Positions 14,540-61,200 of a stretch of 64,000 bases of DNA are shown here, piece after piece. The translations under genes were made by a program, and so were the position numbers. Each line of letters begins with the position of its first letter. The first letter of the stretch is position 1. This DNA comes from Gordius albopunctatus (taxonomy: Eukaryota), in NCBI GenBank assembly GCA_964276515.1, contig OZ193909.1, positions 930,001-994,000 of the forward strand. Reading direction: 5' to 3'. Below the pieces are notes generated by a model. The model made no database searches. It was given only the letters and a program-made list of their open reading frames with translations, and was not told where the DNA came from.

Positions 14540-15110
14540 CCTCCAAGAGTGGTGGATCCTCCGGGGGTTACGAATGGCTCGAGGTCCTACCAAGCCAAAA
14601 CCTAGGGTTACACTTGTCGGGCGAGGAGCTTCAGCCTCGGCTGCGACATTGTGTCCCCATTCAACTATCCTCTACACTGTCAATTCAGCAAGGGGGGCGG
14701 CATCCCCGTCATGCCACAATAAATAAAATAATCGGACAATTTTTAAAGAAAGCCGGCTTCCCCAACTTAATGGAACCCACTGGCCTAAGCTCCACTGACG
14801 GTAAAAGACCCGACGCTGTAACGATCCCGTGGGCTCGTGGCCTAAACCTGTTGGGACTTCACTGAAGTGGATATATTTGCTCTAACGCCTCTCCCCACCT
14901 CATCTCTTCTACTGAGAGGAAGAAAGTGGACAAATACAAATACCTCAGCAATATTATTTTTTTAGCAGTAGTAGCCACGACCCTCGGTAATTCGAGTCCC
15001 GAGGGCAGCCAATTCCTCAGACAAATATCAAAATTTATAACCTCCATCACACACGATCCCAAAGAATTTTTCTACATCAAGCAGAAAATCACCAGATTTT
15101 TATTTATTTG
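14540..15110 (+). mobile_element. 3' fragment of an RLE-bearing (CRE-like) non-LTR retrotransposon
   Basis: RHATIN..EPTGL..DGKRPDAVTIPWARG motif of the restriction-like endonuclease domain; frameshifted; same class as 28757-29720. Confidence 0.65.
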
Positions 15111-15915
15111 CTCAGAGATGGCACTTGCCTAGTTTTTTTATGCAACGTGGTTTTAAAGTGAGGGATTCGAACGTACGAGCTATCGAAGCTAGCCACACAC
15201 AATCAACTGAGCAATGAGACTTACAAACAAGATTTGCCTATTACTTATATATAACTCGGTATTTTTATAAAGGATAATTCAAAGCATCATCTTGTTTGCT
15301 TTCAATAAACTTTGATTAAAATTAGGTACTTATTTAGAGTAATAACTTAAATTGATTATAAAAGCTCTCTAGGGTTTTCACAGGTGAAAATAATTTTTTT
15401 TATAAATATACAATTTTAAATTAATGATTTATGACGATTATAAGAGCTCTCTAGTGTTTCCACAGCCCAATAATATTCATTCAACTTGCCTATAAGGCCT
15501 TTAAAACAATTAAAATTTAAATGCCGCAAAAAATATTGAACATTCTTCTGTTTCGATTTTTTTTAAATAAAAACTGAGCATATTTTGGAAAAAAATGAAC
15601 ATTTAAAAAAACGGAACATTTTTTGGAAAAAAACATAATATTTTTTGAAAAATTACTGAACATTTTTTTACAAAAAAACTGAGCACTTTTTAATTAAAAT
15701 CTGAGCATAAAAGAACTGAGCATTATGGAATTTTTCACATTGCATTTAAATAACACCCGTACTCTAATGTACTCCCTTTTCCAAATAGTGGGACGAATTT
15801 TGAGAAGGGGAAGGAGTTCACATAAATGCGAATGAATAAATTTTGAGGCGAAACAAAAAAAATTAAAATAATGATGGCCACACTTTAGGCGCTCGGGAAA
15901 AAGGACTCAGTTTAG

Positions 15916-16116
15916 TAAAGTTGTTAAATTGCTAACTTTCTTCAACTCCAGCTACTATCTGCTTGAGTTTCTGCTCGGCCCTCGAGCATTTTTATATGCT
16001 ACTGTTTTTCCTAGGACCGGACAGCGGGCACATATTGTGCTAACGCGTATGTTAAGCAACTCAGTGTGCGTGCTCGCGTCTAGAGTTTGAAGAAAGTTAG
16101 CAATTTAACAACTCTA
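15916..16116. mobile_element. hAT-type MITE, TAGAGTTGTTAAATTGCT family
   Basis: ~30-bp TIR; TSD CAGTTTAG/CATTTTAG; near-identical copy at 54100-54302, diverged copy at 52455-52755. Confidence 0.85.
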
Positions 16117-17318
16117 CATTTTAGCATGGGACTATATATGTACTGACGTATTTGCCCCATCTAATCACAACAAAGATCCCTTGTCCTCAGCCGATGCTCT
16201 GAAAATTTCAAAATACTCAGAAATTAACAATGCTACTATAATATTTTGTCCCATTGCGACAACTACCCTAACAACCTTTGGCCTCCAAGTCTTACAACCT
16301 TTTGAAAAAGTAGGGAGACAAATCTCATTACTATCACATAATAATCGCGAATCATTTTTTATACGACATAAAATCGGCATAACTATCTGTAAATATAATT
16401 CATTAGCCCAGTATTTACGATTCTTAATTTTTTAATTTATTTACTTCACCTTCACAAAATACGTAATTCTCTCCATAAAAATAATAAATGATTAATACCT
16501 ATAGATGAAATTTTGAACTACAGGGATAAATTAATATTCTTCGATGTAAATTAAAAGTGCCTTGGGGGGGGGGCAAAAATGCTTAAGGAAGGGCAAATTT
16601 ATCATTTTTTGAAATTTTAGCCATAATTTTAATAAATTTTTGGATTAAGAGGGGGGCAGTCGTCTGCCCCTCCCCCTCTTGGCTATGCCCACGCGTGGCA
16701 ATATAGCCCCAAAAAGGTTAAAAAGGGTATTTTCTGTACCTTCAACCTCGTTTATCTAAAAAAACTGGAAGTCTTGGGAAAAAATTAAAATATATTATTG
16801 TTCAACGCAAAATTTTTTATCACAATCATTGGGTCTGGTTGCGGGATGGAACCACAAAGTGAATAACCCACTCTGCCCAAAAACGCTAAACCATATTTAG
16901 AATTGATTTATTCTAATTTTATCCACAAACTGACCTGCAAACTATTTTTAACCCAAATCCCTTCCTTTTAACTAACCAAATATTATATTTTAGATAGAAA
17001 ATAATGTTAAACGCAGCACTAATTTAAAAATAAATGATGCCTTTATTGTTTGATATCAATATGACAGAGATTAAAAGTCAATTTGTTTATCTTTCTATCC
17101 TCAACGCTACATAATTTGACCCTAATTGTATGCAATTTCGGGTCAGGTCTGGTTGTTTTACACACTGATGATTTGAATCCAAGCCTCGATTTACTTTTTG
17201 CTACTTTAACTATTAAAACGCTGTGAATCTTCCAAAGTTTACTCTTGTGATGAGGATATAGTAAAATAAATTATCCTTGAGTAATATATAAATATGTTAC
17301 TATCAAAAATGTTAACAA

Positions 17319-20760: not shown

Positions 20761-21183
20761 ATGGGTGAATACGTGCAAGAAAATTTCGATATATATCAGC
20801 TGTTTTTATACCTTTACGACCACACCCTAACGCATGCCCATTATTTGGTAGCTATATTTTTGGCGGCAATCGCTATTTTGTTGGTAAACTTGATAAGGAA
20901 AGAGCGTAGACTCTCTCGTAACCGAATTCATATTGATTTATTGGAATTGAGGCTGACCGCCATACAAAATGCGCGGGAACGGATTTTGGCGCGAGAATTT
21001 GCGCGTGAAAATCACGAACTCGCTCACGTGCCCAACGAGCTGATTCACGATTTGGCCTATCCCGTACTCGGGGATAATCCCCAACCACGTGATCGTGGTA
21101 CGACCGGGCGGCGCAGGCCCAATTGCCCGCCCCGAAATAATCAAGAACGCCAAGCAACTACCAAAAGATCTAGCATATTGTGA
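20761..21183 (+). CDS. Orphan 140-aa single-pass membrane protein ORF
   Basis: ATG-initiated, intronless, more GC/CpG-rich than its flanks; hydrophobic YLVAIFLAAIAILLVNLI followed by basic RKERRLSRNR. No family recognised. Confidence 0.45.
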   Translation: MGEYVQENFDIYQLFLYLYDHTLTHAHYLVAIFLAAIAILLVNLIRKERRLSRNRIHIDLLELRLTAIQNARERILAREFARENHELAHVPNELIHDLAYPVLGDNPQPRDRGTTGRRRPNCPPRNNQERQATTKRSSIL

Positions 21184-22050: not shown

Positions 22051-28464
<6,414 letters not shown>

Positions 28465-28756: not shown

Positions 28757-29720
28757 ATTTTTTTTTGTTAAAAAGTTTATTTTCACGAAACAAAGTTACA
28801 TAAATAAGCGAAATACAAAAATAAAGACATATTGGTTAAATACAAAGATCTATATCCTTATCTTCTAAAATGGGGCATGAGTCGGCAAAGGATTTAAAGT
28901 TGTATCGTGCAACAAGAATCCCTAATTGTTGCCTGAGTAAAAAGGACGCAGAAATTTTAGATTTCGGGGTGCGTTTTCCGATTTCTTTAAAAAACCCCAT
29001 TGCCTGTTTACCAAAGGAACCGGAGCACGAGGTAACGACAGGGATAAAAATATTGGATGCCAAAAGGGCAGAATACTTTGTAGTTTTACGCCTTTCTTCT
29101 GTAGCGATAGGGTCGTAATTAAAATGGGAAGGGGCAAAAAGGTCAATACAAGTAAAATCCCATTTGAGGGATAGGCCATTTTTCCAGGGGACTAGAGAAG
29201 AGCCGTCAGGGCGCATCCTACCTTCAAGAGAGGGATCTGATGGCTCAGGGATTGAGGGGATTTTTGCCTTTTTAAGGGCAACTTGAATTAATAAATTAGC
29301 TTTACTGTGCATAACGTATTTATATTTGTTTGCTAGGTAGTGTAGAGGGTGCCTAGCATATTCGTCTACAACGGTAAGGCAATTTTGACAGTTGAATTCT
29401 CTGCTGTAACTAATTCCCAACCTTAAAGCTATGGAATATGATAGCTCAAAGTCTTCAAGCAGCATTCCCAAAAGTTTGCTGGGATAGTCTTCAAGCCACT
29501 CGTGACCGGAACTGTCAAAAGCGAGGGACCTAAGGTTGTAATGCTGGCTATCATCGCTGCTCGATGAAAGGTAATCAACGGAGCGCGATACTAGTCCAGA
29601 ATCCCAATCCTTTTGTCTCGTACTTTTAGGTTGAATGGTCTCGGGTGTGACATTCAAATTCCAAAGCTACAAGGCTTGAGTTAGCAGGGAGTCGGAATCA
29701 TGTTTTATGAGATTAAAAAT
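28757..29720 (-). mobile_element. 5'-truncated RLE-bearing (CRE-like) non-LTR retrotransposon
   Basis: 273-aa ORF with a CxxC knuckle remnant and MRPDG..VPWKNG..WDFTCIDLFAPSH..RKTTKY endonuclease motifs; A-rich tail near 28757-28770 on the minus strand. Confidence 0.75.
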
Positions 29721-31940: not shown

Positions 31941-34900
31941 TCAGGTTGAAAGGGCATTAGAATTTTGCGATTCAATTGGAATCGTTTCAGCTGGACCCGA
32001 CCGACTCTTAAAGAGGGCAACAGCTGATGCTAAAACTAGGCCGAGGAGCAAAACGTAGAGACGTCCCCAATTATGTCCCGTCTCGTCTACTTTCGAGGGG
32101 CGAAGCAAGAGGCCGACCAATGGTCCTTCCAAGAATGTACCCAAAGATCCCAATCCGTTGATCAGCCCAACAACAGCTGACGGCGAAACAGGATGGCCGC
32201 TATGGGTATGTTGTCGTTTATTGTAATTACTCGCCAAGAAAAGTGGTACGCAACTACCAAGCATATTATCTAAACCACCCAAAAATGTTCCTAAAAAATA
32301 TTGTAAAAAATAAGCTATAATTTAAACTAACCTATTAATTTAATTTGTGACAAATTTAATTTAACTCTTCATTTTAAATTCAATAAAAACATATAAAATT
32401 AATTCTAAACTTTAATTTTCTCATCATTTTTGTTGTTGTTTTGAACCTTGGAAAAGAAGAGTGGCTGATACGGCGACCCAATGAACTCCGGGTTTACTAG
32501 TGGTGTACAAAAAGGTTACCATGGCAACGGCGTTAACGCAGACGAAATAAAAGATTCCGCACATTTGATTTTTTCGGTAATATCTAAAACACATTAAACG
32601 TTATTTTTGCTATCAAAATTATACTATTATTTTATCTCAAATGGTCTTTTTTTCAAATATAATTTTTTCCAAATTACAACGCACAAACTATATAATAAAA
32701 CGAAAGACTCTGAAATTGTTTTGGTAAAATCGAAAAATTAAATTATTTTCAACGATAAATCAATTAAATTTACATGAAATATAAGTAATATATTTTGAAG
32801 GCAAAAGATGATGTTTAACCTGTCCAAGAGATATCCCAGAAACACTGATCCAAGGACCCCCCCAATCTCAAAAAAGGCCGAAATATTACCTGCCTGGGCA
32901 CTTGTAAAAAGCGTCTATCATTTACATAAAATAAATATTAAATACTTTTTGCACATTTTACTCGAAATCCACCACAACACATAAACTAAATATATATTCA
33001 TCAAAATTCACTCATACCTGCTTTTCCAACATCAAAGGCAACCACATGTAGAGTATGTAGCGCACCATTTTGAGGCAGAACGTGGCAAAAGAGATCTCCA
33101 ATAAAACCCTACATCAAATCGAATGTATCCAGATGTCGCAAAAACAAAAGATAATCTAGCTATCAAATATCCAATCGACGACAAGTCATATTTCCATGGC
33201 CGTAGCCAAGAAGGGGCAGCATAAACAGAACAAAGATTTTTTGGTCTGATTTTCTTAGTCAGCCTCTAGGTTTGGTCGAAATTTGTAAAACAGACCAGAG
33301 TCGATGGAAGGTTACGAAATATGAGTTTTAACACTTTGCCGGTCAGGTTTACAAGGCTAAAACCAAATGGCTGCTATGTATCGAAAACAAAAGATTTAAA
33401 TAAAAGGTAGATTTACGGGATTTGAGTAATCAAAGTGTTGTGAAGGGTGTTTACACTTCTCTATTTCTCCTTCCCTTTCCCCCTACCCCTTTGTAGTTTA
33501 CACGGTCGTTGTCTCTCGATCTCTCGTTGTTAGCGAGCGTCAATAATATTATTTATTACGCGAGATATTATTTATCGTATATATATGTTTATCACGCGTT
33601 GTGTGAGCGATAAAAGAGGATTATTAAAAAGTTTGGTCTCCTTACCTTTCACATTTTTCATCATCCTAGTACGAGTAAGAAATCAGTTGGATAAACAGTA
33701 TTACACATTTATTAATGGTGATAGCTAATTTAATATTCTTTGTTTAATGAATAATGTAATATTTCTGATTTTTTTGATGCTTTTTGGATATTTTCTTCTT
33801 ACAATTAAATTTTTCAGGCTGTTTATTATAAGAATTTTATTATGCTATTTACTTGATTCAAATTAGTTTTAGATCACGCTGATATATATATTTTACTTCA
33901 AGTGGGTTAATAAATACATGCATATTTGGTATTTACGTAATTTTTTAATAATTTTATCTTTGAATTAGTTTAAATATAACTCACAATTTTGCTATTAGAT
34001 TTAGGGGTGCAATATATTATCTTTGAAAAGTTTTGTAACATTTACTAATTTTGCCATTAGTTTGAATTTTTTAATATTTCGGCTTCGATTTAATTTAGTG
34101 ATACGTACTATTTTGCTATTTGATTAAATTGTGCAATATTTTGGCCTCAAATCAATTTATATGTTACAATTTGTTCTTGTTGTATATTGATTTTGATGTA
34201 ATTTGATATTGGTAACATTATAAGTTTTGAACAATTAACCAAGTTGTAGTAAAGGTATCGTATAGCTTGCATTAATTAATTTGCAGAGTAATATTTATAT
34301 ATTTGCCATAGTTTTTTTTATTTCGCTCAGGGTTTAATTTTTATTGTGGGCATTAATTGCAGGCGATTAAAGTAAGCATTTAACTTTTTTACTAGCGTTA
34401 ATTTGTTAAGCTGTGTAGCAGATATGTTATCATTTTTTAAAACGACACAGAGGGTGGACTTATATGTGGATATTATTAGAGCGAACTGGTTAGTCCTGGT
34501 TTTATTAATCGTTTTAATAGCTGCTTTGTGGAAGATGTGGTGTTTAAGCATTAGGGTAAATGTAGTAAAACAAGCGATAAAATGCTTTCACTGTGGGGGA
34601 CCACATATGGTTAGATATTGTAATAAGAAAGCAGGAAGGATGTTCAAAGGCAGAATTAGGCAAAGTTTTAATAACAGGGATAATGGCAGAGATGGGAATT
34701 ATTCTAGACCACTGCCAGATGGTTATAGGGATAAATTTAATAGTGCTAATTTTGATGACAGGAATTATTCGGGTAATAATGTTTCGCATCCCTCTCAGAA
34801 TGCTTTTTGTAATGGCAATATGAACAGGGATAGTGAGAGGGGAAATAATTTTAATAAGGGTGTTTCAACTTCGTGCGGGTGTAGCCTGCCTTCCGCGGTG

Positions 34901-37900
34901 ACTGCTAGTGGAGCGGGGGTGCGTTGACTAGATGTCAACGTACCTAATTCATCCAGCTCCATTGTAACGTTTAATTTAACAAGCGCTTTGCCCCGTTTAT
35001 TATTTGGTACACAACTGCCCACATCAAAAGTGTGGGTGGAAGGTGCGTTAATTAATTTTATACTCGATTCCGGCGCTTGTGTTAGTTTAATTTCATTAAA
35101 GCATTTTAAGTTATTTTGGCCCTCTAAAAAGATATCCCATTCCCTTTTTAATGCGCGCCAGTTAGATGGTGCGTCTGTCCAATTAGTAGGGAAGGCCTGT
35201 ATGGAGGTGGTGGCTGGCGGCACGAGGTGTAATTTACCTATTTTTATCACGGCAGCTAATATCGCCCCTTTAATGGGCTGGGATTGGTTGCAAGTGATAG
35301 GCCCTCGTGTTAGGTGGTTCGGGTTATGTGACACGTTAGAAGTACCTACCCCGGAGTTGAAGTTAAAGCGTAGTCGTAAAGTAAGCCCAGGGGGGAGTGC
35401 GATGATATGTAATATTGAGCCTCCGAGTACCAAGCAAGCGACTAAGTCGTGTGCGATGATAAACATCGGGACGCCTGCGGGCTTGACACCTTCGGGTGCT
35501 GCAGGTGTGACACCTTCGGGTGAGTGTAAGTGTTTGGGCGACCTGGGCGAATGGCAATCTAATTTGCGTAATTTAGTGACGCGCTACGCCGAAGTTTTTT
35601 CGGAAGGTTTAGGATGTTTAAAGGGGTATGAGTACGATGTGCTGCTTAAACGAGGTGCCTGTCCTAAGTTTTGCCCGAATAGGCGTATTCCGTTTATTTG
35701 GCGGGACGAAGTTAATGCCGTGCTTCGGGACTGGGTTGATCAGGGGATAGTTTCGCCCGTTGATTATAGTGAGTGGGCGACCCCTCTGGTTCCGGTTAAG
35801 AAGAGCGACGGTTCGCTTCGTCTGTGTGTAGATTTCCGGGTTACACTTAATCCGTGGTTGGTGGAAATTAAGTACCCAATTCCGCGGGTTGAGGAGATTT
35901 TAGCTAACCTGAGTAACGCATGTTATTTTTCAAAACTTGATTTAAGATCGGCATATTTGCAGATCAGATTAAATGCTCGATCGGCACGGTTAATGACGAT
36001 AAATACTCCTTTGGGGTTGTTTGCGTTTAATCGTTTGCCGTTTGGCTTGAGTATTTCGGCGTCTGTTTTCCAAAAGACGATGGCCTCGGTTTTCCAGGGT
36101 TTGAACGGCGTGTTCTTTTACCTGGATGATGTGCTGATTGTGGGCGCGTCAATGCAAGAGCATGATATGCGTCTAGAATCGGTACTGAACCGCGTCCAGG
36201 AGAGAGGATTACGTTTAACCAGGAAGAAGTGCATGATTGGGGTTACCGAAGTTACTTTTTTAGGGCATGTTATCGCATGTGGGAGAATTAGACCTCTGGG
36301 TAGTAAGGTGGCTGCGATTAAGAATATACGGGCCCCGGTTAGTAAAAAAGAGGTTTTGGCTTTCATGGGGTCGGTTAATTATTATCGCAAGTTTATACCA
36401 CATTGTTCGGAGGTGGCGGCTCCCTTGCATAGACTGACGCAGAGTAATGTGCGTTTTGTTTGGGCCGAAAAGGAGCAGTTAGCTTTCGATAAGTTAAAGA
36501 ACTTGTTAGGAAGCGATCCTGTTTTGGTGTGTTTTAATCGTGACCTGCCAATAGGTCTAGCGGTAGACGCATCGAATAGCGGTATAGGTGGCATGCTCTT
36601 TCATATTGTTATGGGCGTAGAACGGCCAATACTATTTTTCTCGCGTAAATTAACGGCGGCGGAGCTTAATTATTCAGTTATTGAGAAGGAGGCTCTTGCC
36701 GTGGTTTTTGCGTTAATAAAGTGCCGTGAGTATCTTGGTCGAGATTTTAAAGTTTTTACGGATCATAAACCGCTAATTCCTCTGTTCGCGAAGTGTAACA
36801 GTAGTTTGTTGCTTAGCCCTAGGTTACAGAAATGGTTGTTGTTTTTGGGGAATTTTAACGTAACCTTAGAGTATAAAAAGGGGGCAACGAATTATTTACC
36901 TGATACGTTGTCGCGCTTAGGTGAGGATAATGGTACCTTACCTGAGGAGGAATTAGAAGGTGATAAATTTTTGGTCAATATTGTAACGGAAACTTTCCCA
37001 TCAGTTAACCTTAAAGAGGAGGTTAGTAAAGATGAGGAGTTGAGTCGAGTTACAAGATGCCTGATTGACGGCGAGACGCTCGAGGAGATTCCTGTGGGTT
37101 ACCGCGGGGTGAGGAACGAACTCTGTTTTGAGAACGGTATCATTCTGCGGGGTGAACGCATAGTGATTCCACGAGTGTTACGTCCTCAGGTTCTGAATTT
37201 ATTGCATGCTGGACATATTGGGACGGCTAAAATGAAGGTTTTGGCACGTAGATATGTTTGGTGGCCTAAGATGGGAAAAGATATAAGCATGTATGGGCGT
37301 AAATGCGTTGCATGTAACAAGAATGCGAGTATGCCCAGGCATGATAAAAAGGCGAGGTGGCCTCAGGCACATAATGTGTGGGATCGAGTGCACCTTGATT
37401 TTTTTGATTTTGACTCTAAGCAATATCTTTTGTTGGTGGATGCGACATCGAGTTGGGTTGAATTCGAGCGGGTGTCGAAACTATCTACTAAAAGCGTAAT
37501 TGTTTTTTTGGAAAAATTAATGGGCGCTTTTGGCATACCGAAGTGCGTGGTGTCAGATAATGGTACCGCGTTTACTAGTGCCGAGTTTAAAGCGTTTTGC
37601 GATAGGTGGGGCATACGTCACGTATTAACGCCTCCCTATCATCCTAGTTCTAACGGGCTGGCTGAGCGACATGTGGCGATTGTTAAACGATGGTTAAAAA
37701 ACGAGAAGGTGGAGAAAGAAGGCATTTGGATGTACAGGTTGTTGCACAATGCTTCCCCTCGTTTCCCGTGTCGCGCGCCGGTTAGTAAGGTTTTTTTAAA
37801 TAGGATACCGCGAATACCGATCGATGTGTTCGTAGATAGCGAGTTGACATCTCGTGTATCTGACATTGGCCGGTTTCGGGTTAATGAGGCAGTTTGGGCC

Positions 37901-40900
37901 CGGGGTTATGGCGGGTCTGAAAAATGGCTCGAAGCGGTAGTTAAATCCCGCGTGGGCTCTAAAGCTTACGACGTGGAGTTTACAGCTGCAAATAACCATG
38001 CTATGAGGCATGAAGAGCAATTGCGGCCGCGTTTTGAATAAAATATTAATATGGATATGTTATAATGTCTAATGTTTTTAGTTATATTAGATGGATATAA
38101 TTGCTTCGTGGTGCCGAGTACGAGTGGTGGTTCAGGCGATCGATCCACTGTACGCCCCAAGCAATTTACACGTGTCGTTTGTGGTGGGTGCAGACGGTGT
38201 GCCCCACATGGTCAACTTCCATGAACAAATCTACCCTCAGGCGAGGAGAGAGATCCGACCCGGGGGTGAAAGATTTGTGAATATGGGTCGACGTGGCGGA
38301 GCGGCTCGTAACGTCGCCCCGATAGTGAGGATCCCGATAGCGAGGATTCAAGAGAACCTGCAGCGCGGCGTAGCCGCTGGGCGCCAGGTACGGAGGGGCG
38401 CGGAAGCTGCCCCACCGGCGACGAATGGCGGCAGGCGACGTCGTGTTGCACGGAGGTGGTGTCATGGGTGTCATCGTCGGCATCGTGGGCTGAGATGTAA
38501 CCCACAGATACCGCCGGAGGGTGGTAATGCCGTAGGTACGGTAGTAGAGCGTATCATTGAGGCAATGGACGCGTCGGAAATAGTGGCGGGTGCGAACGTT
38601 GTAGGGACGGTAGCGCTGCAGGGTGACAGTACCTTGGTACGGTCGTCCGCGGCGGCGTCGCAACAGAGCGTGGTAGCGCCAGGTGAGGCAACAATTATCT
38701 GTCAGGTGGAAACGTTGTCGTTACAGGAAGAGGAGGCTTTATTGCTTTCTCCTGTAATGGTGGCTCCACCGGATTCGGCAGTTGAGTCGAACGTAGTACG
38801 CCGGTCTGCAAATATGGACCAGCGTGGGGAACAATAGGGTGAAGCGAAGTGCAAGGCGGAAGAATGGGGGAAAGACATCGAGCCCAACTACGTCGTCCGA
38901 GGAGCTCTCGATTTCTAAACAATCAAGAGGTCGTGCTGACCGGTTGCGCTATCTCATTTGTCTTGCCCCGGATGGAGTTATTTTAAAAAGGATGGTGTTG
39001 TGAAGGGTGTTTACACTTCTCTATTTCTCCTTCCCTTTCCCCCTACCCCTTTGTAGTTTACACGGTCGTTGTCTCTCGATCTCTCGTTGTTAGCGAGCGT
39101 CAATAATATTATTTATTACGCGAGATATTATTTATCGTATATATATGTTTATCACGCGTTGTGTGAGCGATAAAAGAGGATTATTAAAAAAGTTTGGTCT
39201 CCTTACCTTTCACATTTTTCATCATCCTAGTACGAGTAAGAAATCAGTTGGATAAACAGTATTACACATTTATTACAAAGCTAAGGATTCTCGGATTCGT
39301 TGAATCAAAAGGACTGGCAAGGCCACAAATAGACGTCTCGGATTTATCCTAAAGGATTTGGGCGAATCTATAAAAATGAAAAATATATAAAAAAAACAAC
39401 TTATTTAAGTATAGTAACTTTATTTTGCATTTTAATAATAGTATTTTTATAATGATTTCACATTATTTAAATTACCACATCGAGTAGTTTAAAAATAAAG
39501 GCATTAACGCTAAAATTAAAAATTTTTTTTACAACTTTTGAGTAAAAGCAAAATTAAACTTGATGCCAAGACAAACATATGCACCCGATCTTATTTATAG
39601 TCTTAAAACACACAAGGATTAAGCTATTTTTTGCTATTTTTATATAAGAGCTACTAAAATTTAAGCATACATCAATAAAAACGTTAAACCTATGCAAACC
39701 ATAGGTAATTTAAAGCTTGAATAAATTAATGAGCTATAAATTTTTAAAATTGAGTCGTCACAAAAAAATAAATTAAAATTGTAATATATAGTAACTAAGC
39801 AAAGGAATAAAAATTGCGTTAACTTTAAGAATTATGCCATGAAATAAGTTGTGAACTTAGCAATTAATTGAATATAAAGATTATAGCTTAGGCTTAGCTC
39901 GTTAATTAAATAGATTTTGGCATAAAGTGCAACTTAATAATAATACATTATTTCTAATTTTGTTCGTTTTTTAATATAAAACTATTACTTAATTAATTAA
40001 ATAATAAATTAACTCAATCTAAAACTCACCGACGTGGGAAGGGTGTGCATTTGAAAATAGTTTTGGTGGAATGTGATGTTTGAAACAGAGGTAAAATACT
40101 AGGAAAGTCACAGCATAACATATCTATAATAATTAACAGTTCATCCAAAAATGTATATAACAGATGTTTACAACATGTAAAAATTTGTTATGCCTTTTAT
40201 AGTTATCAATTAGCTAGATTCTAGTGTAAAGCAAGATTAATTGTAATAAAAAGCCATGATCTTATACCAGAACTTTTAATATTTGTCAGAAAATATATTT
40301 TGAAGCTTATATAAACTATTAGATTCCTTTCAGATATTTTACAAATAATTGAAAAATACATAAATTTTTTAAAACATAGAATTAACATTTATGTAAATCA
40401 TACATTACTATAATCAAAGAGGGTATAGGGTACATCCAATGCCAACCATATTTCTCACGAACGTAGACCTATATAAAATCCAAAAAGTATTCAAGTAGTC
40501 CAATATTAATACTAGTGTTGCAAAAAGACGTGGGTTTTATTTGGTTGCCCTTTGGTTTCAGTCGACTAAACATAAACAAAGCTAAGGTTTTTTGGTTTGT
40601 TTATCTTGATAGACCTCTAGGCTTAGTCAAAATTAAAAAAAACAGACCAGATTTGAACCAAACAAAACCCACGTATTTTTAAAACACTACTTCATACAAA
40701 GATATATATGTAATACAAAATTTACTGCAAAAATGGTTCCCAAAGTTCCTCCTGCAAATGCACAAGTCCCGAAGACACCCAGTAAAACATTAAGGTGTGA
40801 TGAATCACTTAATATGATTGAAACCAATTTTATTGACATTGGCCAGAAAAATGACTATAATTTGAAAAAAATTAATATATTCACATTGCTTGGGGTTTAT

Positions 40901-43900
40901 TTAAAAATATAGGAGAATTTTGGAAATTGTTCTAAATTTGTATTTAAAATAGAACCATTAAATATAATAACATAATAAATTCCAACATTATGAACATGTT
41001 TAAAAAGTGACTCAATTTAAATACTGAGGACCTCCTTTAGAACAAGTCACTCTTTTTAAATTTATCAAATAAGCAGTAATGATTACTAATAAGTAGGTGC
41101 CCTTTTGATACCAAAGTTGATTAAATGTAAATTATTGCTATAAAGACATTGATGTTGCTATTATATTTTTATGCTTAATCAGTCCATATTTTATAATAAT
41201 TTGATATTATCATAAATTTGAGACTATGTCAAAATGATTTATAAAAAAGTGTGATCTATATTTAATATAATTAAATGTGTAAAAATAATTTTCAACATCT
41301 AAGGTACTTTTACCTGAAAACTCCCATTTAAAAATAACATGACAAGAAATGACCAAAAATTTCGTTTTGGGGCAACGGGTAAAATCCCTTCCTGTCAAAA
41401 GTTTCACGATCGTGAAACTTTTTCGTGAAACTTTTTCGAAGCGACAAATTTCAAATTGAACAGATTTTTTTTCAGGCAACCCAGCCAAACTTCACAAGAT
41501 TATACTAAATTCTCAACTTCAAAAGAGTATAATAATTTTAATGTTTTTGCAACAAATTTACACTAACTTTTTTACTATTTTTTTAGAATTGCTTATTCTT
41601 TTTACACAATTTTTAATAAGGCAACCCAGCCAAACTTCACAAGATTATACTAAATTCTCAACTTCAAAAGAGTATAATAATTTTAATGTTTTTGCAACAA
41701 ATTTACACTAACTTTTTTACTATTTTTTTAGAATTGCTTATTCTTTTTACACAATTTTTAATAAGGCAATCCAGCCAAACTTCACAAGATTATACTAAAT
41801 TCTCAACTTCAAAAGAGTATAATAATTTTAATGTTTTTGCAACAAATTTACACTAACTTTTTTACTATTTTTTTAGAATTGCTTATTCTTTTTACACAAT
41901 TTTTAATAAGGCAACCCAGCCAAACTTCACAAGATTATACTAAATTCTCAACTTCAAAAGAGTATAATAATTTTAATGTTTTTGCAACAAATTTACACTA
42001 ACTTTTTTACTATTTTTTTAGAATTGCTTATTCTTTTTACAGAATTTTTAATAAGGCAATCCAGCCAAACTTCACAAGATTATACTAAATTCTCAACTTC
42101 AAAAGAGTATAATAATTTTAATGTTTTTGCAACAAATTTACACTAACTTTTTTACTATTTTTTTAGAATTGCTTATTCTTTTTACACAATTTTTAATAAG
42201 GCAACCCAGCCAAACTTCACAAGATTATACTAAATTCTCAACTTCAAAAGAGTATAATAATTTTAATGTTTTTGCAACAAATTTACACTAACTTTTTTAC
42301 TATTTTTTTAGAATTGCTTATTCTTTTTACACAATTTTTAATAAGGCAATCCAGCCAAACTTCACAAGATTATACTAAATTCTCAACTTCAAAAGAGTAT
42401 AATAATTTTAATGTTTTTGCAACAAATTTACACTAACTTTTTTACTATTTTTTTAGAATTGCTTATTCTTTTTACACAATTTTTAATAAGGCAACCCAGC
42501 CAAACTTCACAAGATTATACTAAATTCTCAACTTCAAAAGAGTATAATAATTTTAATGTTTTTGCAACAAATTTACACTAACTTTTTTACTATTTTTTTA
42601 GAATTGCTTATTCTTTTTACACAATTTTTAATAAGGCAATCCAGCCAAACTTCACAAGATTATACTAAATTCTCAACTTCAAAAGAGTATAATAATTTTA
42701 ATGTTTTTGCAACAAATTTACACTAACTTTTTTACTATTTTTTTAGAATTGCTTATTCTTTTTACACAATTTTTAATAAGGCAATCCAGCCAAACTTCAC
42801 AAGATTATACTAAATTCTCAACTTCAAAAGAGTATAATAATTTTAATGTTTTTGCAACAAATTTACACTAACTTTTTTACTATTTTTTTAGAATTGCTTA
42901 TTCTTTTTACACAATTTTTAATAAGGCAATCCAGCCAAACTTCACAAGATTATACTAAATTCTCAACTTCAAAAGAGTATAATAATTTTAATGTTTTTGC
43001 AACAAATTTACACTAACTTTTTTACTATTTTTTTAGAATTGCTTATTCTTTTTACACAATTTTTAATAAAATATATGCTTTAACATTCATTAAACTATTT
43101 ATACTCAGATTTAAAAAAATATTTTTATTATGTCTTATTAATATTTAAATTTATTTATTATATTTTTAATTTGTTTTATGATTACTATACATTTAAGATG
43201 CTTACTAGAAAGTATGATCTTCATAAAACATTTTGAATTCTTTTTACAGAATTTTATTGCACAAACCACAGCTCCTATTCCTACTGTTATATTTGATATG
43301 CCCATCGAATTTAAATTAACTCAAAATAAAAACCCAATTTTAGTCTTAGGGGAATATGAATATACCCAAACTAAAGTTGGCAAAAAATTGCAACTTTATT
43401 TTAAGTGCCGAACAAAGAAATGCCAAGGACGAGGCATATACCAAAATGCTGATTTCCATATAACTCAAGAACACTCAGATATTCCTCACAAAAGTATATT
43501 TATAATAATTTTTTTATCATGGTGTATTTAGTCTATCCCAAAATAAATATAAATGAAACTCATATACAAATCAATCCAATTGAAGCACCTACATCACTAG
43601 TTGTTTCTAGGTCACCCCTGGAAACACTTAACATGAAAAATATATCTTGTAAGGTATAAATATATAAATCCTCAAACTATTAGAGGTACTTCAAGCGAAT
43701 ATACACCTTCAATTTAAATATATTGTGAATTATATATTTTTTATAGGACAAGCCTCTCTATCTTCCATGACAATTGATAACAATATCTCAAATAATATTA
43801 TGTCTTTTTCAAGTAAAAATATTTCAAATATATTTAATTTTTAATAAAGGGCCAATAAACATACTGGCTGAATCAACACTTGATAACCTTACTCCTACAT

Positions 43901-46900
43901 CAAGTAAAGTTTATTATTTAAAAGATTTAATGTATAATAAATATAAGGTTCTCTTGAAGATGCTCAGATATTATTGGATGCTTTCCAAATAATCCAGACA
44001 AATAACCAAAGTAATATTCTTTTAATGTAAATTATATCACAGTTTTTAGTCAATGCTCCGGAGTTTTTGCCGTCAAACAATGGAACTTTGCTTTATTTTG
44101 AAAACTATCTTTACCGTAGAAATATGGAAAAGAATGATAGAGTTTACTACGGATGCCGCAAACTGTCATGTTCTGGCAGAGTCAAAGAGGTTTTGGGAAT
44201 TTTTTCTCAATTGCGTCCCCACAATCACGCGCCCCCTATTGGGGAATATGAAAAAATAATCACTAACATTGCATTAAAAAATGGGGTTCTGGATGACCCT
44301 AAAGAAAGGATCAGCAAGATATATTACAAAGTCATAGCGGAGAGGCTGAGGGACAATCCTGACATCAGGGACCATCCCGAAGCCACCCCACTGTTAAGGT
44401 CTGTTAAAAAAAAGCTAAAAAAAATGGATCCATTCAGGTACGACACGCCTAAGGATAATGACGACATTATCCTTAGGCCGCATCATTTCAAAACTCATGG
44501 TGGCGAAAACTTTTTGCTCTGGAACGAGGAAAATAGGATTTTTATTTTTGGGACAGCCGACCTATTAAAAATAATGTGTGAATCCAAAAATATTTATGGT
44601 GACGGTACCTTTAAATGTTGCCCCCAACATTTTACTCAGGTATTTACATTTTTATAATATATCCGTAACGTTTTTTTTAGATTTATACAATTCATTCTTA
44701 TTACCGGGAGCACATGGTTCCGGTAGTATATACACTTCTGCCTGATAAAACCGAAGATACTTATAAGAAAGTGTTCAGGAAACTTATTCAGATTTGTGCT
44801 ACCTTGCAGCTAGTTTTCGCCCCAAACTATGCACAGGTTGATTTTGAACGGGCAAGCATCGAGGCATTGGAAGCCTGTTTCCCTAATATTATTATAAAGG
44901 GTAAAATTTAATGTTTTGTTTATATAAGTTTTAGGTTGCTTGTTTCATTTTGGCCAGGCGATCTATCGACACGCTGGGTCTGGCAAAATGAAGACTCTTT
45001 ATTCATCAAACGCTGATTTCAAGCGCAGCGTTCGTCGTCTTTTAGCATTACCATTTGTGAAGAGAGGACACATCCGCGATGTCATGACCCATTGCATGGT
45101 CCAGCCCAATGTGCGCGGCGATAGAGAAATTGAGAATTTTTTTCTGTACATCCACAATACCTGGGTTGGGCTTGAGAGGGACCCTTTGTTCCCCTATGAT
45201 ATGTGGCAACGGCTTGATGCAGAGGGGCCCCGTACCAACAACCACCTAGAAGGGTTTCATAATGCTCTTAGAAGTGGGCTTAAACAAACCCACCCTACTA
45301 TTTATGTGTTTGTTGATTTCCTGCAAGACCTGCAAGAAAAGACTAATGTTGATTTACTACACATCTCTCAGGGCAAGAGAGTTTATGAAACAAATAAAAA
45401 ATACGCTTCTATAAATTATCATATAAATCGTCTTATAGCACAATATACAAATATATCTAACCCTATGCCCCTATTTCCATATGTTGATGCCATCTCTAAT
45501 TATATGCACTTACAAGGTCACGATACCCCGTTATATGATGAAATTGATTTACAATAATAAATATAAATTTGTTTAAATTTTTACTTTTGCGGATATTACA
45601 AGCTCAAACATATAAATAGTTTGGAACGGCTTAAATATATTGGCTAGATGCTAATAATTTATGATGTAAAATAATCTTTAACGGTTCATTTGCATGTCTA
45701 AACAAATGCTTGCCCATAATGTGGGATGTTGAAACCCGGGTAAAAAAAGGTACCCCATTTTGTGATTGGTTGTATGGGGAACGATTTTAAATTAGGGGAC
45801 CTTTTTTAACCGAAGGACATTAAATTAGGCGAGATGATTTTTGGCGAGTTGATAGGGCGCCTAAATGAATAAATCCTATAAGCTAACTTTATACAAATAA
45901 ATTGACTAAGTTTGATTATTGCTAATTATAACATAACCTAACAAGAACTATAAAAAAATTATCCTAACTTTTTTAACTACTTTCATACATTATTTTACAT
46001 AATATTTATTTTTAAATGTAACAATAGTATGTATAACTGTATTAAGCTTATTTTACTTATACTATATTGTACATTAAGCACATTAGTGATAATATTTATT
46101 CATTATATATATATAATTAACTATTATTTTATGTTATTTATATCAAATAGATGTTATATCAGGTATAAAATGCACTAGTGCTAATATTTATTCATTTTAT
46201 ATATATCATTAAATATTATTATCTGTTATTTAAATCCCATAAATATCACAACAGATAGAATATGCACAAGATGTATAACGTTTTATAGCATTACTTTAGC
46301 TTTACATATGCTATACATACAAATTTAACGAATTTATAGTAACACATGTTTATTAATTATTAACTATTATTATTATTAACAGTTAAATCTAATTGATTTG
46401 TTAAAATGTAATTAAAATGTTTATATAACATTAAATATAATTATAAACGTTTTATAGCCTTACTCTAACTATAATTATGCTATATATACACATTACACCA
46501 ATTGATAATAATGCATGTTCCTTAATTATTAAATATTATCATTATTAACAATTAAATCTAATTTATTTGATACTATATATTTAAAATATATTATATTATC
46601 CATATGTTTATATGTACAAATTAAATATTTCATATGATCCGAATTTCTGATTCATGCATACAAAAATTTGACTGGATGTACCCGAACCAAAAATTTGACC
46701 AATATCCTAAACCAATAGTGGAAAGTCCAGATGCAATTAGGCATGTGGTTAAAAAGTAAAATGGATCTTTATTTTCTCCTAAATTGGAAAGCAAAATCTG
46801 AAAAATGGTAAATAATTTATATAATAATAAGTTAATCCACCTGACATAATGAATAGGGCAATAAGAAAGCAGAATCAAGAAAACCAATTTGTAATTTGGA

Positions 46901-58293: not shown

Positions 58294-61200
58294 ATGAACC
58301 GAATAAATATTGCCATACAAATATTATGCTGCGCTAGTTTCTTACAATATATCAAAGCCGCTGAGTACAGAGGAGTTTCCCTTGATACTGGTAAACTCTA
58401 TTCCATATTCAAGATTTTGTTTTATATAATTGTCCTCATGGACGTAGCTGGGGAGGAGGAGGGGGGCAAGGAGGAACGGCTTGTTATATATTGTAATATT
58501 GTATTTTAATATTGTATTTTAATCTTATTTGATAATTTCGGTTCGTATTTTATAGATACCCTTTGTTTGAATTTGATATATAATTCCATTTCCATATGTT
58601 TTAGCGTCATTGTTTTATCGAGCTATCCAATAAATTTATGTTATAATTTCCAGTTGTAATATTGGCGCTGCGAATTAAAGATGACTGCAGAACCGGATTA
58701 TTCCAAATTGGAAAAAATATCCCTTAAGGAATTTGATTACAGCTGCGAGAATATCGAAGATTATTTAGATTACGTGGACGCTCGCCTTGATATTATAGGA
58801 CTTTCATCCGATTTGGCAAGGAAAAAGTTGATCAGATCATTTCTATGCACGGCCAATTTAAGAAAACTGTCTCAAATTTTATATCCTAAACTTTTTAAAG
58901 ATGCCATATGGGATGAAATCGTCTCGGCTTTGCGTAAAGTATTTAAAAAGACAACTTCGGCATTTGCGGCGAGAATGGAACTGATGCGATCGAAAAGAGC
59001 CTCAGGTGAATCGGTTTTGGATTTTTATCGAAGAATCAATTCTATAGTGCAAGATTGCAACTTCAAGGTAGACATAGAGGCACGTATTCGGGATCAGCTG
59101 ATTTTTGGAGTGGATATTCAACGGTTGGAACTCGAAATTCGGACTAATTTTTCCAATTGTGAGGAGAAGGACGGAAGTCCTCTCACATTGGAGAAGGTGC
59201 TAGACATGGCACTAACGATAGAAAGAGCTGAGAAGGAGACCCAGGAAAATATTCCTATGGTTCAAAAGATATCGAGGACGCAAGGTGACAAGTCTTTTAA
59301 ATCCGACAAGAGTTTTAAATGCCAACGTTGCGACAGGAATCATCCTCCAAATCAGTGTCCTGCCTTCATGGCGTATTGTAGAAAGTTTAATACGAGGTGA
59401 CATTACGCTCGGTGTTGTAAAGACGATTCTAAGGTACAGCAAGTATATATAGCCGGAGAAGATAATGATGCCAGTTCTATGGATTCAATATCCCAGATTA
59501 ATCGTCGAGGGCGTCGTGCCACGATTAGGGTGAAAATCAACGATCTCTGGACAGTGATGGATTTTGACACTGGGGCGCAGGTATCTGTAATTAATTCATC
59601 GTTATGGAAAGAAATCGGCCAGCCCATACTTAGAAAGACCATACCACCTCTAGTATACGGTTGTACAGCCCTAGAGATATTGGGTGAATCAACGGTGAAG
59701 GTCCAGTTGGGCAAGCGAACGGAATTTTTAACAGTGGTAGTTAGCAAGGGTAAAGAGGTACCACTTTTTGGATTACCATGGAGTTTAGCTTTTAACTTAG
59801 TACTTCCCTCAATGGTTGAAGTTCATAATGTAAGTAGTTCAAACAATCTAACCTCGCTTACTAGGAATTTTGAAGAGAAATATAGTGGTATTTTTGATGG
59901 TAAATTAAGATTAATAAATTCATGCGAACCAGTAGTTATCCATTTGAAGTCTAATGCAACTCCTAGATCTTGGCAAGCTAGGAGGGTTCCGTTTCCCTTG
60001 CGAGCTCCTTTAGAGAAAGAGCTTCAAAGATTGGTTATCGCAGGTGTGCTAGAACAAGTGGATCCCAACATTACACCCATTCAATGGGCTACTCCAATTG
60101 TGATCGTAAGGAAAACAAATAATGACATCCGTATCTGTGCCGATTTCAAGGTTACTTTGAATCCAAATTTAATTATAGATTACCATCATATCCCAACGTT
60201 TCAAGATGTTGCCGCAAAAATTTCGGGAGGAAGGAAGTTCACGAAAATTGATCTAAAAGATGCATACCTGCAAATGCCTGTTTCCGAGAAATCACAAGAC
60301 CTCTTAGTTATATCAACCAGTTTGGGCTATTACAAATGCTGTCGGCTTCCGTTTGGGTTGTCCTCAGCTCCAGCCATTTTTCAGAGGTTTATGGATAACT
60401 TACTAAAAGATTGTCCTAAAACAGGAGTTTACCTTGATGATATAATAATCACCGGTGAAAATGACGAGGAGCACATTGCAAACGTCAATAAAGTTTTAAT
60501 GAAATTAAAAGATTCGGGAATTAAAGCACAGTTTAATAAAATTCGGTTTTTGGAAGAATCGGTTGAATTTTTAGGGTATGTGATAGATAAAGAAGGGATC
60601 CATCCCTCCGGATCAAAGATACAAGCCATTTTAGAAATAAAAAGACCCACTAATAGATCCGAGTTAAAATCTTTTCTTGGGATGCTTTGCTATCAGGAAA
60701 AATTTATTCCTAGCCTTCACGGTATTTTATCACCATTGCATCGACTTACGGCACGAAATCTAGATGGGTATGGTCACAGGAGGAGGAACAAATATTTTTA
60801 AAAGCTAAATCGATTTTAAAGAATTGTAATACCTTAATTCCTTATTCACCAACCTTGCCCTTGGTGTTGGAAACCGACGCTTCTGATAAAGGATTTGGGG
60901 CGGTGTTGTCACATGCACTTGATGCTGGACTATTGCGCCCTATTGCGTATGCTTCGAGAACACTTTCCAATGCCGAGGAAAGTTATGCTACTATTGATAA
61001 GGAAGCCAAGGCCATACTATGGGCGGTCCAAAAATTTCACACTTACCTTTATGGAAGGAAATTTATCATGAGAACGGATCATAAACCTTTAGTGCGATTG
61101 TTCGGAGAAAATAGGGATCTTCCAAGAATAGTAAATAATAGATTGATGCGCTGGGCTTATCAGCTATCAGCATACGATTTTTCATTGGAGTACATCGAAA

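What the first reader, a model, noticed from the sequence alone, without database searches (positions are those of the whole stretch)
33436..39275. Recently active Gypsy element with no recognisable capsid: a membrane-anchored zinc-knuckle ORF sits where Gag should be
Seen: LTRs are essentially identical, the TSD is perfect and pol is uninterrupted, so the insertion is very recent. ORF1 (167 aa) has only ~53 residues before the CCHC knuckle, including a hydrophobic run (WLVLVLLIVLIAALW), and is followed by an N/G/R/D-rich low-complexity tail. An in-frame TAA at 34373 and a stop-rich ~700-nt T-rich leader leave no room for a capsid. The neighbouring Gypsy (58681) has a normal ~210-aa capsid region before its knuckle. 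Established: Ty3/Gypsy elements need a Gag capsid to form particles. Inference: this lineage may tether RNA and Pol to membranes or vesicles instead of a capsid, or borrow capsid from a helper element.
Basis: partly seen in the sequence, partly recalled or inferred. Interest (0 to 1): 0.88.

Follow-up and report, generated by a model that had tools for sequence, protein, structure and literature searches.

The report
Capsid-less retrotransposon with membrane-anchored Gag
A young retrovirus-like jumping gene, probably of a horsehair worm, has no recognisable shell (capsid) gene, as do the sister copies we could see; in its place is a small protein with a predicted membrane anchor and an RNA-gripping zinc knuckle, which suggests it may copy itself on membranes rather than inside a virus-like particle.

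Summary
Confirmed and extended. 33436-39275 is a young Ty3/Gypsy element: LTRs differ by one indel, 5-bp TSD, open pol. ORF1 has 53 residues before one CX2CX3HX4C knuckle, including a strong hydrophobic helix. A capsid profile finds the neighbour's Gag (75 bits) and nothing in this element (best -0.3); the leader is non-coding by composition. Contigs from three studies, including a second organism about 10% diverged, keep the layout: indels fall upstream of the ATG, none shift ORF1, and anchor changes stay hydrophobic. So this is a family design, not one deleted copy. RT groups with Gordionus elements inside a capsid-bearing Mag-like group, so the capsid was lost. Best reading (0.42): a membrane-tethered nucleocapsid-Pol replicates the element without a shell. 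Rivals: borrowed capsid (0.27), ORF3 as replacement shell (0.2). No RNA data, whole genome or ORF1/ORF3 homologues were available, and selection on the anchor is only suggestive.

The parts
33431..33435 (+). Target-site duplication CAAAG (left)
33436..33714 (+). 5' LTR, 279 nt, TGT...TTA; TATA-like at 33578; donor-like GTAAGA at 33675
   Evidence: promoter and donor roles inferred
33716..33733 (+). PBS position (starts TGG, 1 nt after the LTR); primer tRNA not identified
   Evidence: role inferred from position
33715..34423 (+). T-rich (47%) non-coding leader with 8 upstream ATGs; acceptor-like T-tract-CAG ending 34330, donor-like GTAAGC at 34372, AG at 34395; possibly an intron in the translated RNA
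   Evidence: non-triplet indels in sister copies; splicing untested
34424..34927 (+). ORF1, 167 aa: 22-residue N-terminus, predicted TM helix (about residues 22-41), basic stretch, CX2CX3HX4C knuckle (residues 54-66, from 34583), N/G/R/S-rich tail; no capsid
   Evidence: frame kept in sister copies
34925..34931 (+). TGA-CTA-G junction, ORF1 and pol in one frame; candidate readthrough signal with a downstream stem-loop (z -2.4)
   Evidence: context as in alphavirus type II sites; readthrough untested
34928..38041 (+). pol: PR-RT-RNase H-IN, 1037 codons, no GPY/F; first Met at residue 92, after the protease motif at 46
38091..38837 (+). ORF3, 248 aa orphan: predicted beta-rich N-terminus, Arg-rich region, second CX2CX3HX4C knuckle (38460), acidic tail; no TM; acceptor-like AGs at 38081 and 38090 just before the ATG
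38978..38995 (+). PPT position (purine-rich, ...AAAAAGGATGG)
   Evidence: role inferred from position
38996..39275 (+). 3' LTR, 280 nt
39276..39280 (+). Target-site duplication CAAAG (right)

Best explanation
This is a recently inserted member of a Mag-like Ty3/Gypsy family, probably of a horsehair worm, that has lost the capsid domain and likely replicates as a membrane-tethered RNA-protein complex instead of inside a Gag shell. Shown: no capsid anywhere in the element; ORF1 = short N-terminus + hydrophobic helix + knuckle; in-frame TGA into an open pol; the same layout in sister copies. Inferred: (1) ORF1 inserts once in an internal membrane, N-terminus outside and C-terminus in the cytosol (net +1 before, +4 after the helix). 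(2) Its knuckle and basic, low-complexity tail bind and concentrate the genomic RNA on that membrane. (3) A minority of ribosomes read through UGA-CUA-G, giving an anchored ORF1-Pol precursor, which is the only AUG-started route to the protease; clustering on the membrane would stand in for capsid assembly in bringing PR, RT, RNA and tRNA together. (4) ORF3 is likely an accessory RNA-binding protein from a spliced message (export, chaperone or condensate role).
For: Profiles of 38 Mag-like and 69 Gag N-terminal regions score the neighbour at 75 and 83 bits and the best of 84 element tiles at -0.3 and -0.5. Leader frames have 9-11% D/E/K/R against at least 22% in 38 capsid regions. X1 contig 34339-35036 has 1 difference; X3 contigs cover 33628-34219 and 34237-34851; X4 and X5 (organism B) cover ORF1 in 30 and 29 of 30 bins or better. 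All 7 indel rows lie upstream of the ATG, none in ORF1; tail length variants in X2 and X4 add 60 nt, in frame (table 5c, counted by hand). Changes in and near the helix are I32L, M38I, I43F; none is listed in the knuckle. None of 91 measurable fetched proteins with a knuckle has a hydrophobic window above 1.58 before it, against 2.66 here. pol rows: 8 synonymous of 14 codons, so the element's own Pol appears to be under selection, although without a capsid domain it has no obvious way into another element's particle (inference). No LTR or leader similarity to the capsid-bearing neighbour (best 26 nt, E 0.04); RT identity 36%.
Against: All known Metaviridae replicate in capsid-built particles (ICTV profile), and a Gag-less, pol-keeping parasite exists (BARE2). 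Selection on ORF1 residues 1-70 is not significant: 6 synonymous of 15 changes, omega about 0.37-0.55, p 0.06-0.19; the tail looks unconstrained (1 of 15); 44 difference rows were hidden. Two Gordionus relatives lack a capsid in the 97 and 141 residues before PR but also show no TM or canonical knuckle there, so the anchor is not shown beyond this family. No contig spans the whole element; one contig each in X4 and X5 carries other sequence just before the knuckle, of which only 30 of 130-137 letters were shown. The TM call rests on hydropathy and a single-sequence model, not on a topology predictor. The host genome could not be searched for a closer helper.
Confidence: 0.42

Rival explanations
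1. Helper-dependent parasite: the family lost its capsid and has its RNA packaged by the Gag of another Gypsy family in the same genome, as BARE2 does with BARE1; the TM-knuckle protein is an accessory (for example targeting or cell-to-cell transfer).
For: Precedent: BARE2 cannot make Gag, keeps pol and is packaged in BARE1 particles (PMC3735527, passages). Capsid-bearing Mag-like elements occur in this genome (neighbour). Particles are the rule for the family.
Against: BARE2 keeps its helper's packaging signals; here the only visible candidate shares no LTR or leader sequence and only 36% RT identity. The element sits on a long branch (0.75 + 0.36 changes per column) with no capsid-bearing close relative among 121 rows. 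An anchored precursor without a capsid domain has no evident way to co-assemble (inference).
Confidence: 0.27
2. ORF3 has taken over the structural role: a non-homologous shell or scaffold protein with its own Arg-rich region and knuckle packages the RNA, while ORF1 anchors the particle and delivers Pol.
For: ORF3 has a second CX2CX3HX4C knuckle after an Arg-rich stretch, a predicted beta-rich N-terminus and acceptor-like sites before its ATG. Listed differences in codons 1-181 are 5 synonymous of 7, and X4 has an in-frame 3-nt insertion.
Against: No capsid-profile score, no Pfam, PDB or database homologue. The main X1 contig and part of X2 have a 1-nt deletion at 38636 that changes the last 66 residues; rows after it are 4 non-synonymous of 5. 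Several of the synonymous rows are private to this copy. Env-slot orphans elsewhere are regulatory (CERV).
Confidence: 0.2
3. A capsid exists but was missed: it is spliced together from the leader, or carried by rarer full-length sisters, and the common form is a deletion derivative.
For: The leader has splice-like sites, and a 24-nt GT...AG stretch (34372-34395) contains the in-frame TAA. Short exons could fall below profile detection. 8 loose-end rows and 460 were hidden. Cer1's capsid was recognisable only by structure.
Against: Leader composition is far from any capsid (37-45% F/I/Y/W/C against at most 18%). Every leader segment between the indel sites has stops in all three frames. Non-triplet indels and higher divergence in organism B. 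The letters shown for the one alternative junction before the knuckle hold an in-frame stop five codons upstream (read by eye). Removing the 24-nt stretch would add only about 26 codons with no ATG (by eye).
Confidence: 0.07
4. The hydrophobic run is a by-product of T-rich leader sequence recruited into a truncated gag and has no membrane role.
For: The leader yields a hydrophobic frame by composition alone (KD 2.44); the selection test is not significant.
Against: T is concentrated at codon position 2 (13 of 19, against 9 and 5); 4 of 1,287 shuffles match the score; changes in organism B stay hydrophobic.
Confidence: 0.04

Closest known systems
Mag-lineage Ty3/Gypsy elements (Metaviridae). 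The Mag label is from recall, from NCBI's 'K02A2.6-like' names and from passages of PMC5408684; no named reference elements were in the tree.
   Same: PR-RT-RH-IN order; RT inside a 33-row group (SH-aLRT 97) in which 22 of the 29 sister rows have at least 180 residues before a double knuckle; no GPY/F; gag and pol in one frame; CX2CX3HX4C first knuckle.
   Different: No capsid region; one knuckle, not two; hydrophobic helix before the knuckle; a stop between ORF1 and pol; an ORF3 with its own knuckle.
Gypsy elements of Gordionus sp. m RMFG-2023 (P0001, P0124, P0125; names)
   Same: Closest RT (57-58%), one clade with SH-aLRT 100; long PR-RT spacer; no capsid in the 97 and 141 residues annotated before PR.
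   Different: Those gene models show no TM or canonical knuckle before PR; their upstream DNA could not be fetched, so a separate gag there is not excluded.
BARE2 of barley (PMC3735527, passages)
   Same: Spreads without making its own capsid and keeps pol.
   Different: Copia, not Gypsy; a close derivative of its helper that lost the gag start; no replacement protein. Here a distinct ORF1 is kept in frame and no close helper is visible.
sORF2/FAST-like proteins of MDG1-group Gypsy elements (bioRxiv 10.1101/2025.03.14.642691; sections 7 and 10 and passages)
   Same: Small single-TM protein 5' of pol, short ectodomain, basic residues after the helix.
   Different: sORF2 accompanies a normal Gag capsid, starts with MGxxxS/T and is a separate ORF. 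ORF1 starts MLSFFK, carries the knuckle and runs into pol.
CERV of C. elegans Cer1 (PMC10309623; abstract and passages)
   Same: Orphan, Cys-containing protein in the env slot of a Gypsy element; spliced message (only inferred for ORF3).
   Different: No sequence link tested; Cer1 has a 690-aa Gag with a capsid-like domain; ORF3 has a CCHC-type knuckle.
Type II stop-codon readthrough of alphaviruses (PMC13517186, table passages)
   Same: UGA followed by CUA (UGA CUA GAC in ONNV, UGA CUA GAU here), a downstream stem-loop, polymerase after the stop.
   Different: Here in an LTR retrotransposon; efficiency not measured.

Membership tests
Metaviridae (Ty3/Gypsy) | Two LTRs, PBS and PPT positions, target-site duplication | tested here: met
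   primer tRNA not identified
Metaviridae (Ty3/Gypsy) | pol with PR, RT, RNase H, IN in that order; RT groups with Gypsy elements | tested here: met
Metaviridae (Ty3/Gypsy) | gag encodes a capsid domain (ICTV profile) | tested here: not met
   profile search with positive control; only 53 residues before the knuckle; leader composition
Metaviridae (Ty3/Gypsy) | gag encodes a nucleocapsid knuckle | tested here: met
   CX2CX3HX4C at 34583; motif match only, no Pfam hit
Metaviridae (Ty3/Gypsy) | Replication inside virus-like particles | not testable with these tools
   needs tissue fractionation or EM
Mag lineage | RT placement among Mag elements | tested here: inconclusive
   nested among double-knuckle, K02A2.6-like rows in a quick tree without named references
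Mag lineage | Two adjacent knuckles; no gag-pol frameshift; no GPY/F (passages) | tested here: not met
   single knuckle in ORF1; the other two features hold
BARE2-type helper-dependent element | No own capsid, pol kept | tested here: met
BARE2-type helper-dependent element | A closely related capsid-encoding helper with shared cis signals | tested here: inconclusive
   neighbour shares none; whole genome not held
sORF2/FAST-like protein | 60-210 aa, single TM, 10-50 aa ectodomain, at least 3 K/R within 15 residues after the TM | tested here: met
   167 aa, 22-residue N-terminus, K36/R44/K49 (criteria); TM by hydropathy only
sORF2/FAST-like protein | N-myristoylation motif MGxxxS/T | tested here: not met
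   ORF1 begins MLSFFK
env-bearing Gypsy | ORF3 with signal peptide and TM anchor | tested here: not met
   ORF3 maximum KD19 1.22, no Pfam hit
Divergent capsid in ORF3 | Retroviral-type helical capsid fold | tested here: inconclusive
   model pLDDT 35, mostly strands; fold searches uninformative

The most novel reading that the evidence does not exclude
A lineage of LTR retrotransposons in horsehair worms has given up the retroviral capsid altogether and transposes on its own, using a membrane-anchored nucleocapsid-Pol as a replication platform, the way capsid-less RNA viruses use membranes.
Probability: 0.35. Interest if true: 0.93.

Novelty: new variant of a known kind. Interest (0 to 1): 0.76.

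Why it matters
The capsid is the shared hallmark of retroviruses and LTR retrotransposons, and reverse transcription in these elements is taken to happen inside it (ICTV profile). A spreading family that keeps its own Pol but has replaced the capsid with a membrane anchor would show that the shell is dispensable, and would give a natural system for asking what the capsid is really needed for: concentration of enzymes, protease activation, shielding of cDNA. If it borrows a capsid instead, it would be parasitism across distantly related elements, with a dedicated membrane adaptor. Ten literature searches of the held library listed nothing that, by title and abstract start, describes this architecture or nematomorph Gypsy elements. 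Subscription journals, Repbase notes and bioRxiv supplements were not visible.

Tried and rejected
No whole genome is held, so no copy census or helper search. Protein searches: ORF1 and ORF3 had no hit at E 0.01 among near-length proteins. The ORF1-plus-protease query gave 76 hits, nearly all on the protease or knuckle alone; P0151, the only hit spanning both, has no TM. None of the five window ORFs looked up is in the collection by identity. No related loci in viral contigs or metagenome contigs. No RNA holder listed; no GT-AG joint from the leader to ORF1 or ORF3 among the joints shown, with 21 hidden and run type unknown. ORF1 model is one long helix plus disorder and was not fold-searched. 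ORF3 model is too poor: Foldseek viral no hit at E 0.001, VIA best Z 4.9 to unrelated beta proteins; no PDB sequence hit. ORF3 four-copy complex: no answer. ORF1 and ORF3 show no similarity by BLASTP. No Rfam match. The Atlas search gave no result in any of eight tries. Weak tblastn hits of Gag regions to the element (best E 0.005, minus strand inside the protease region) were judged chance. My integrase HHCC regex found nothing while Pfam Integrase_H2C2 did. A recalled paper on gag-pol recoding in retrotransposons was not held, so the frequency of readthrough in LTR elements is not cited. Contig depth was not used as copy number or expression. Rejected: single-copy deletion derivative; env in ORF3; classic sORF2.
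Full report
Observation. The element runs from 33436 to 39275. Its LTRs (279 and 280 nt) differ by one A in an A-run, and CAAAG flanks both ends. pol (34928-38041) is one open frame with protease, RT, RNase H and integrase in Gypsy order and intact catalytic motifs. ORF1 (34424-34927, 167 aa) has 53 residues before a CX2CX3HX4C knuckle. Its hydrophobic run scores 2.66 (KD, 19 residues), a value reached by 4 of 1,287 stop-free shuffles, with T concentrated at codon position 2. A single-sequence model makes residues 4-57 one helix, with pLDDT about 90 or more over residues 11-40.

Is a capsid hidden? I built profiles from the pre-knuckle regions of fetched relatives (38 Mag-like; 69 in all) and searched 852 six-frame tiles of the window with stops as X. 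The neighbour's Gag scored 75 and 83 bits; the best of 84 tiles in the element scored -0.3 and -0.5. Short exons could escape such a search, so I also compared composition. Leader frames have 9-11% charged residues and 37-45% F/I/Y/W/C, against at least 22% and at most 18% in the 38 capsid regions; every leader segment between the indel sites of sister copies has stops in all three frames. ORF3 has no capsid score either; its model is too poor for a fold verdict (pLDDT 35).

Is this copy a one-off deletion? No genome was held, so I used contigs of public runs: 7 holders in 3 studies, 5 of them laid. X1 and X2 may be the window's own source and are not independent. X1 has one contig over 34339-35036 with 1 difference. 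X3 (another study) has contigs over 33628-34219 and 34237-34851. X4 and X5 (organism B, a third study) cover ORF1 in short contigs about 90% alike. In one search the indel table was complete: all 7 rows lie in the 144 nt before the ATG and none in the 504 nt of ORF1; they may be only about three events. Tail variants in X2 and X4 add 60 nt, in frame. Of the 40 difference rows shown (44 hidden), 30 are organism-B changes in ORF1: residues 1-70 have 6 synonymous of 15 changes, all replacements conservative and none in the knuckle; the tail has 1 of 15. That contrast is suggestive only (p 0.06-0.19; Fisher 0.08). One contig each in X4 and X5 has other sequence just before the knuckle; the 30 letters shown hold an in-frame stop, so it does not look like a capsid extension, but about 100 letters were not shown. 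No contig spans the whole element. The capsid-less layout is therefore the family's common form in at least two organisms; rare capsid-bearing sisters are not excluded.

ORF1 and pol are in one frame, separated by TGA-CTA-G. UGA followed by CUA is the type II readthrough context listed for Sindbis and o'nyong-nyong viruses (PMC13517186, table passages), and the 140 nt from the stop fold better than 198 of 200 shuffles (z -2.4). The first Met of the pol frame is residue 92, after the protease motif at 46, so an AUG-started protease needs readthrough from ORF1 and the precursor would carry the anchor. The stop is present in X1's contig; in organism B contigs span it and no change there is among the rows shown. 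ORF3 has a second CX2CX3HX4C knuckle after an Arg-rich region and no TM, with acceptor-like AGs just before its ATG. Its listed differences are 5 synonymous of 7 in codons 1-181, some private to this copy; a 1-nt deletion at 38636 in X1's main contig and part of X2 changes its tail. Donor-like sites at 33675 and 34372 and an acceptor-like site at 34330 suggest that the T-rich leader, with its 8 upstream ATGs, is spliced out of the translated RNA and that ORF3 is reached by an env-style splice. No RNA data could test this.

Where it belongs. The closest Pol is from the horsehair worm Gordionus sp. m RMFG-2023; five further protease-bearing hits are from the same species (P0124, P0125, P0131, P0152, P0167). 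The host is thus probably a nematomorph (inference). In a quick maximum-likelihood RT tree (121 of 123 rows; two dropped for short alignment; SH-aLRT only, midpoint root), the element and two Gordionus sequences form a long-branch clade (100) inside a 33-row group (97), where 22 of the 29 sister rows have at least 180 residues before a double knuckle. Loss of the capsid is the simplest reading. The two Gordionus models with sequence before PR have 97 and 141 residues without capsid, but also without TM or canonical knuckle; they are gene predictions and their upstream DNA was out of reach. Of 196 fetched proteins, 96 have a knuckle; among the 91 with enough sequence before it, the highest hydrophobic window is 1.58. 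ORF1 and ORF3 have no database homologues.

Mechanism. I favour a membrane-tethered replication complex (0.42). Charges around the helix (+1 before, +4 after) predict the knuckle and Pol on the cytosolic side. The family keeps its own Pol under apparent selection (8 synonymous of 14 listed codons), yet without a capsid domain that Pol has no evident way into another element's particle, whereas the anchor could cluster it with the RNA. The helper model (0.27) has a real precedent in BARE2 (PMC3735527, passages) and fits the rule that Metaviridae replicate in particles (ICTV profile, whole text). However, the only visible candidate, the neighbour, is broken, shares no cis sequence and has 36% RT identity. 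ORF3 as a replacement shell (0.2) is open; the nearest analogue in position, CERV of Cer1, is regulatory (PMC10309623, abstract and passages). ORF1 meets the size, ectodomain and polybasic criteria of sORF2/FAST-like fusogens but lacks the myristoylation motif, and sORF2 elements keep their capsid (bioRxiv 2025.03.14.642691, sections 7 and 10 and passages; supplements closed).

Verdict. The anatomy is real, family-wide as far as visible, and not described in the papers listed by ten searches of the held library (judged from titles and abstract starts). By RT, LTRs and pol this is a Ty3/Gypsy element, but it fails the capsid criterion, so I call it a new variant. How it replicates is inferred, not shown. 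Interest 0.76.

Noticed in passing
window 58482-62831: Neighbouring Mag-like Gypsy with 180-nt LTRs (3 mismatches of 180) and a real capsid region, but broken by a stop in the second knuckle, a frame change in RT/RNase H and a stop before integrase.
   Followed up: partly
window 22359-26551, minus strand: Multi-exon host gene resembling glutamine-fructose-6-phosphate aminotransferase (name recalled from motifs); its exon ends show GTAAG/GTAAA/GTATT donors like those in the element's leader.
   Followed up: partly
window 20761-21183, plus strand: Orphan 140-aa ORF with one strong hydrophobic helix (KD 2.49), a charged helical stretch and a basic tail; only a weak Pfam SieB hit (E 0.017); no similarity to ORF1.
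   Followed up: partly
window 41474-43069: Young satellite: 11 copies of a 145-nt unit, 99% matches.
   Followed up: no
window 28839-29666, minus strand; related pieces at 14569-16399: 276-codon frame resembling the restriction-like endonuclease end of a non-LTR retrotransposon (recalled motif), with decayed relatives.
   Followed up: no
window 44031-45554: Two frames resembling a FLYWCH finger and a Mutator-like transposase (recalled motifs).
   Followed up: no
window 33715-38995 in run X2: Low-depth internal deletion joints (33715 to 38360, 36492 to 38995, 33937 to 34581) point to non-autonomous derivatives of this family.
   Followed up: no
Untested.
   Followed up: partly
window 33220-33299 and 40571-40651: The element landed next to or inside a short inverted-repeat element; the left flank matches another copy at 77% over 81 nt.
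   Followed up: partly
P0125 (Gordionus): A protease of this clade is followed by about 450 residues of a Trp/Pro/Arg-rich repeat instead of RT.
   Followed up: no
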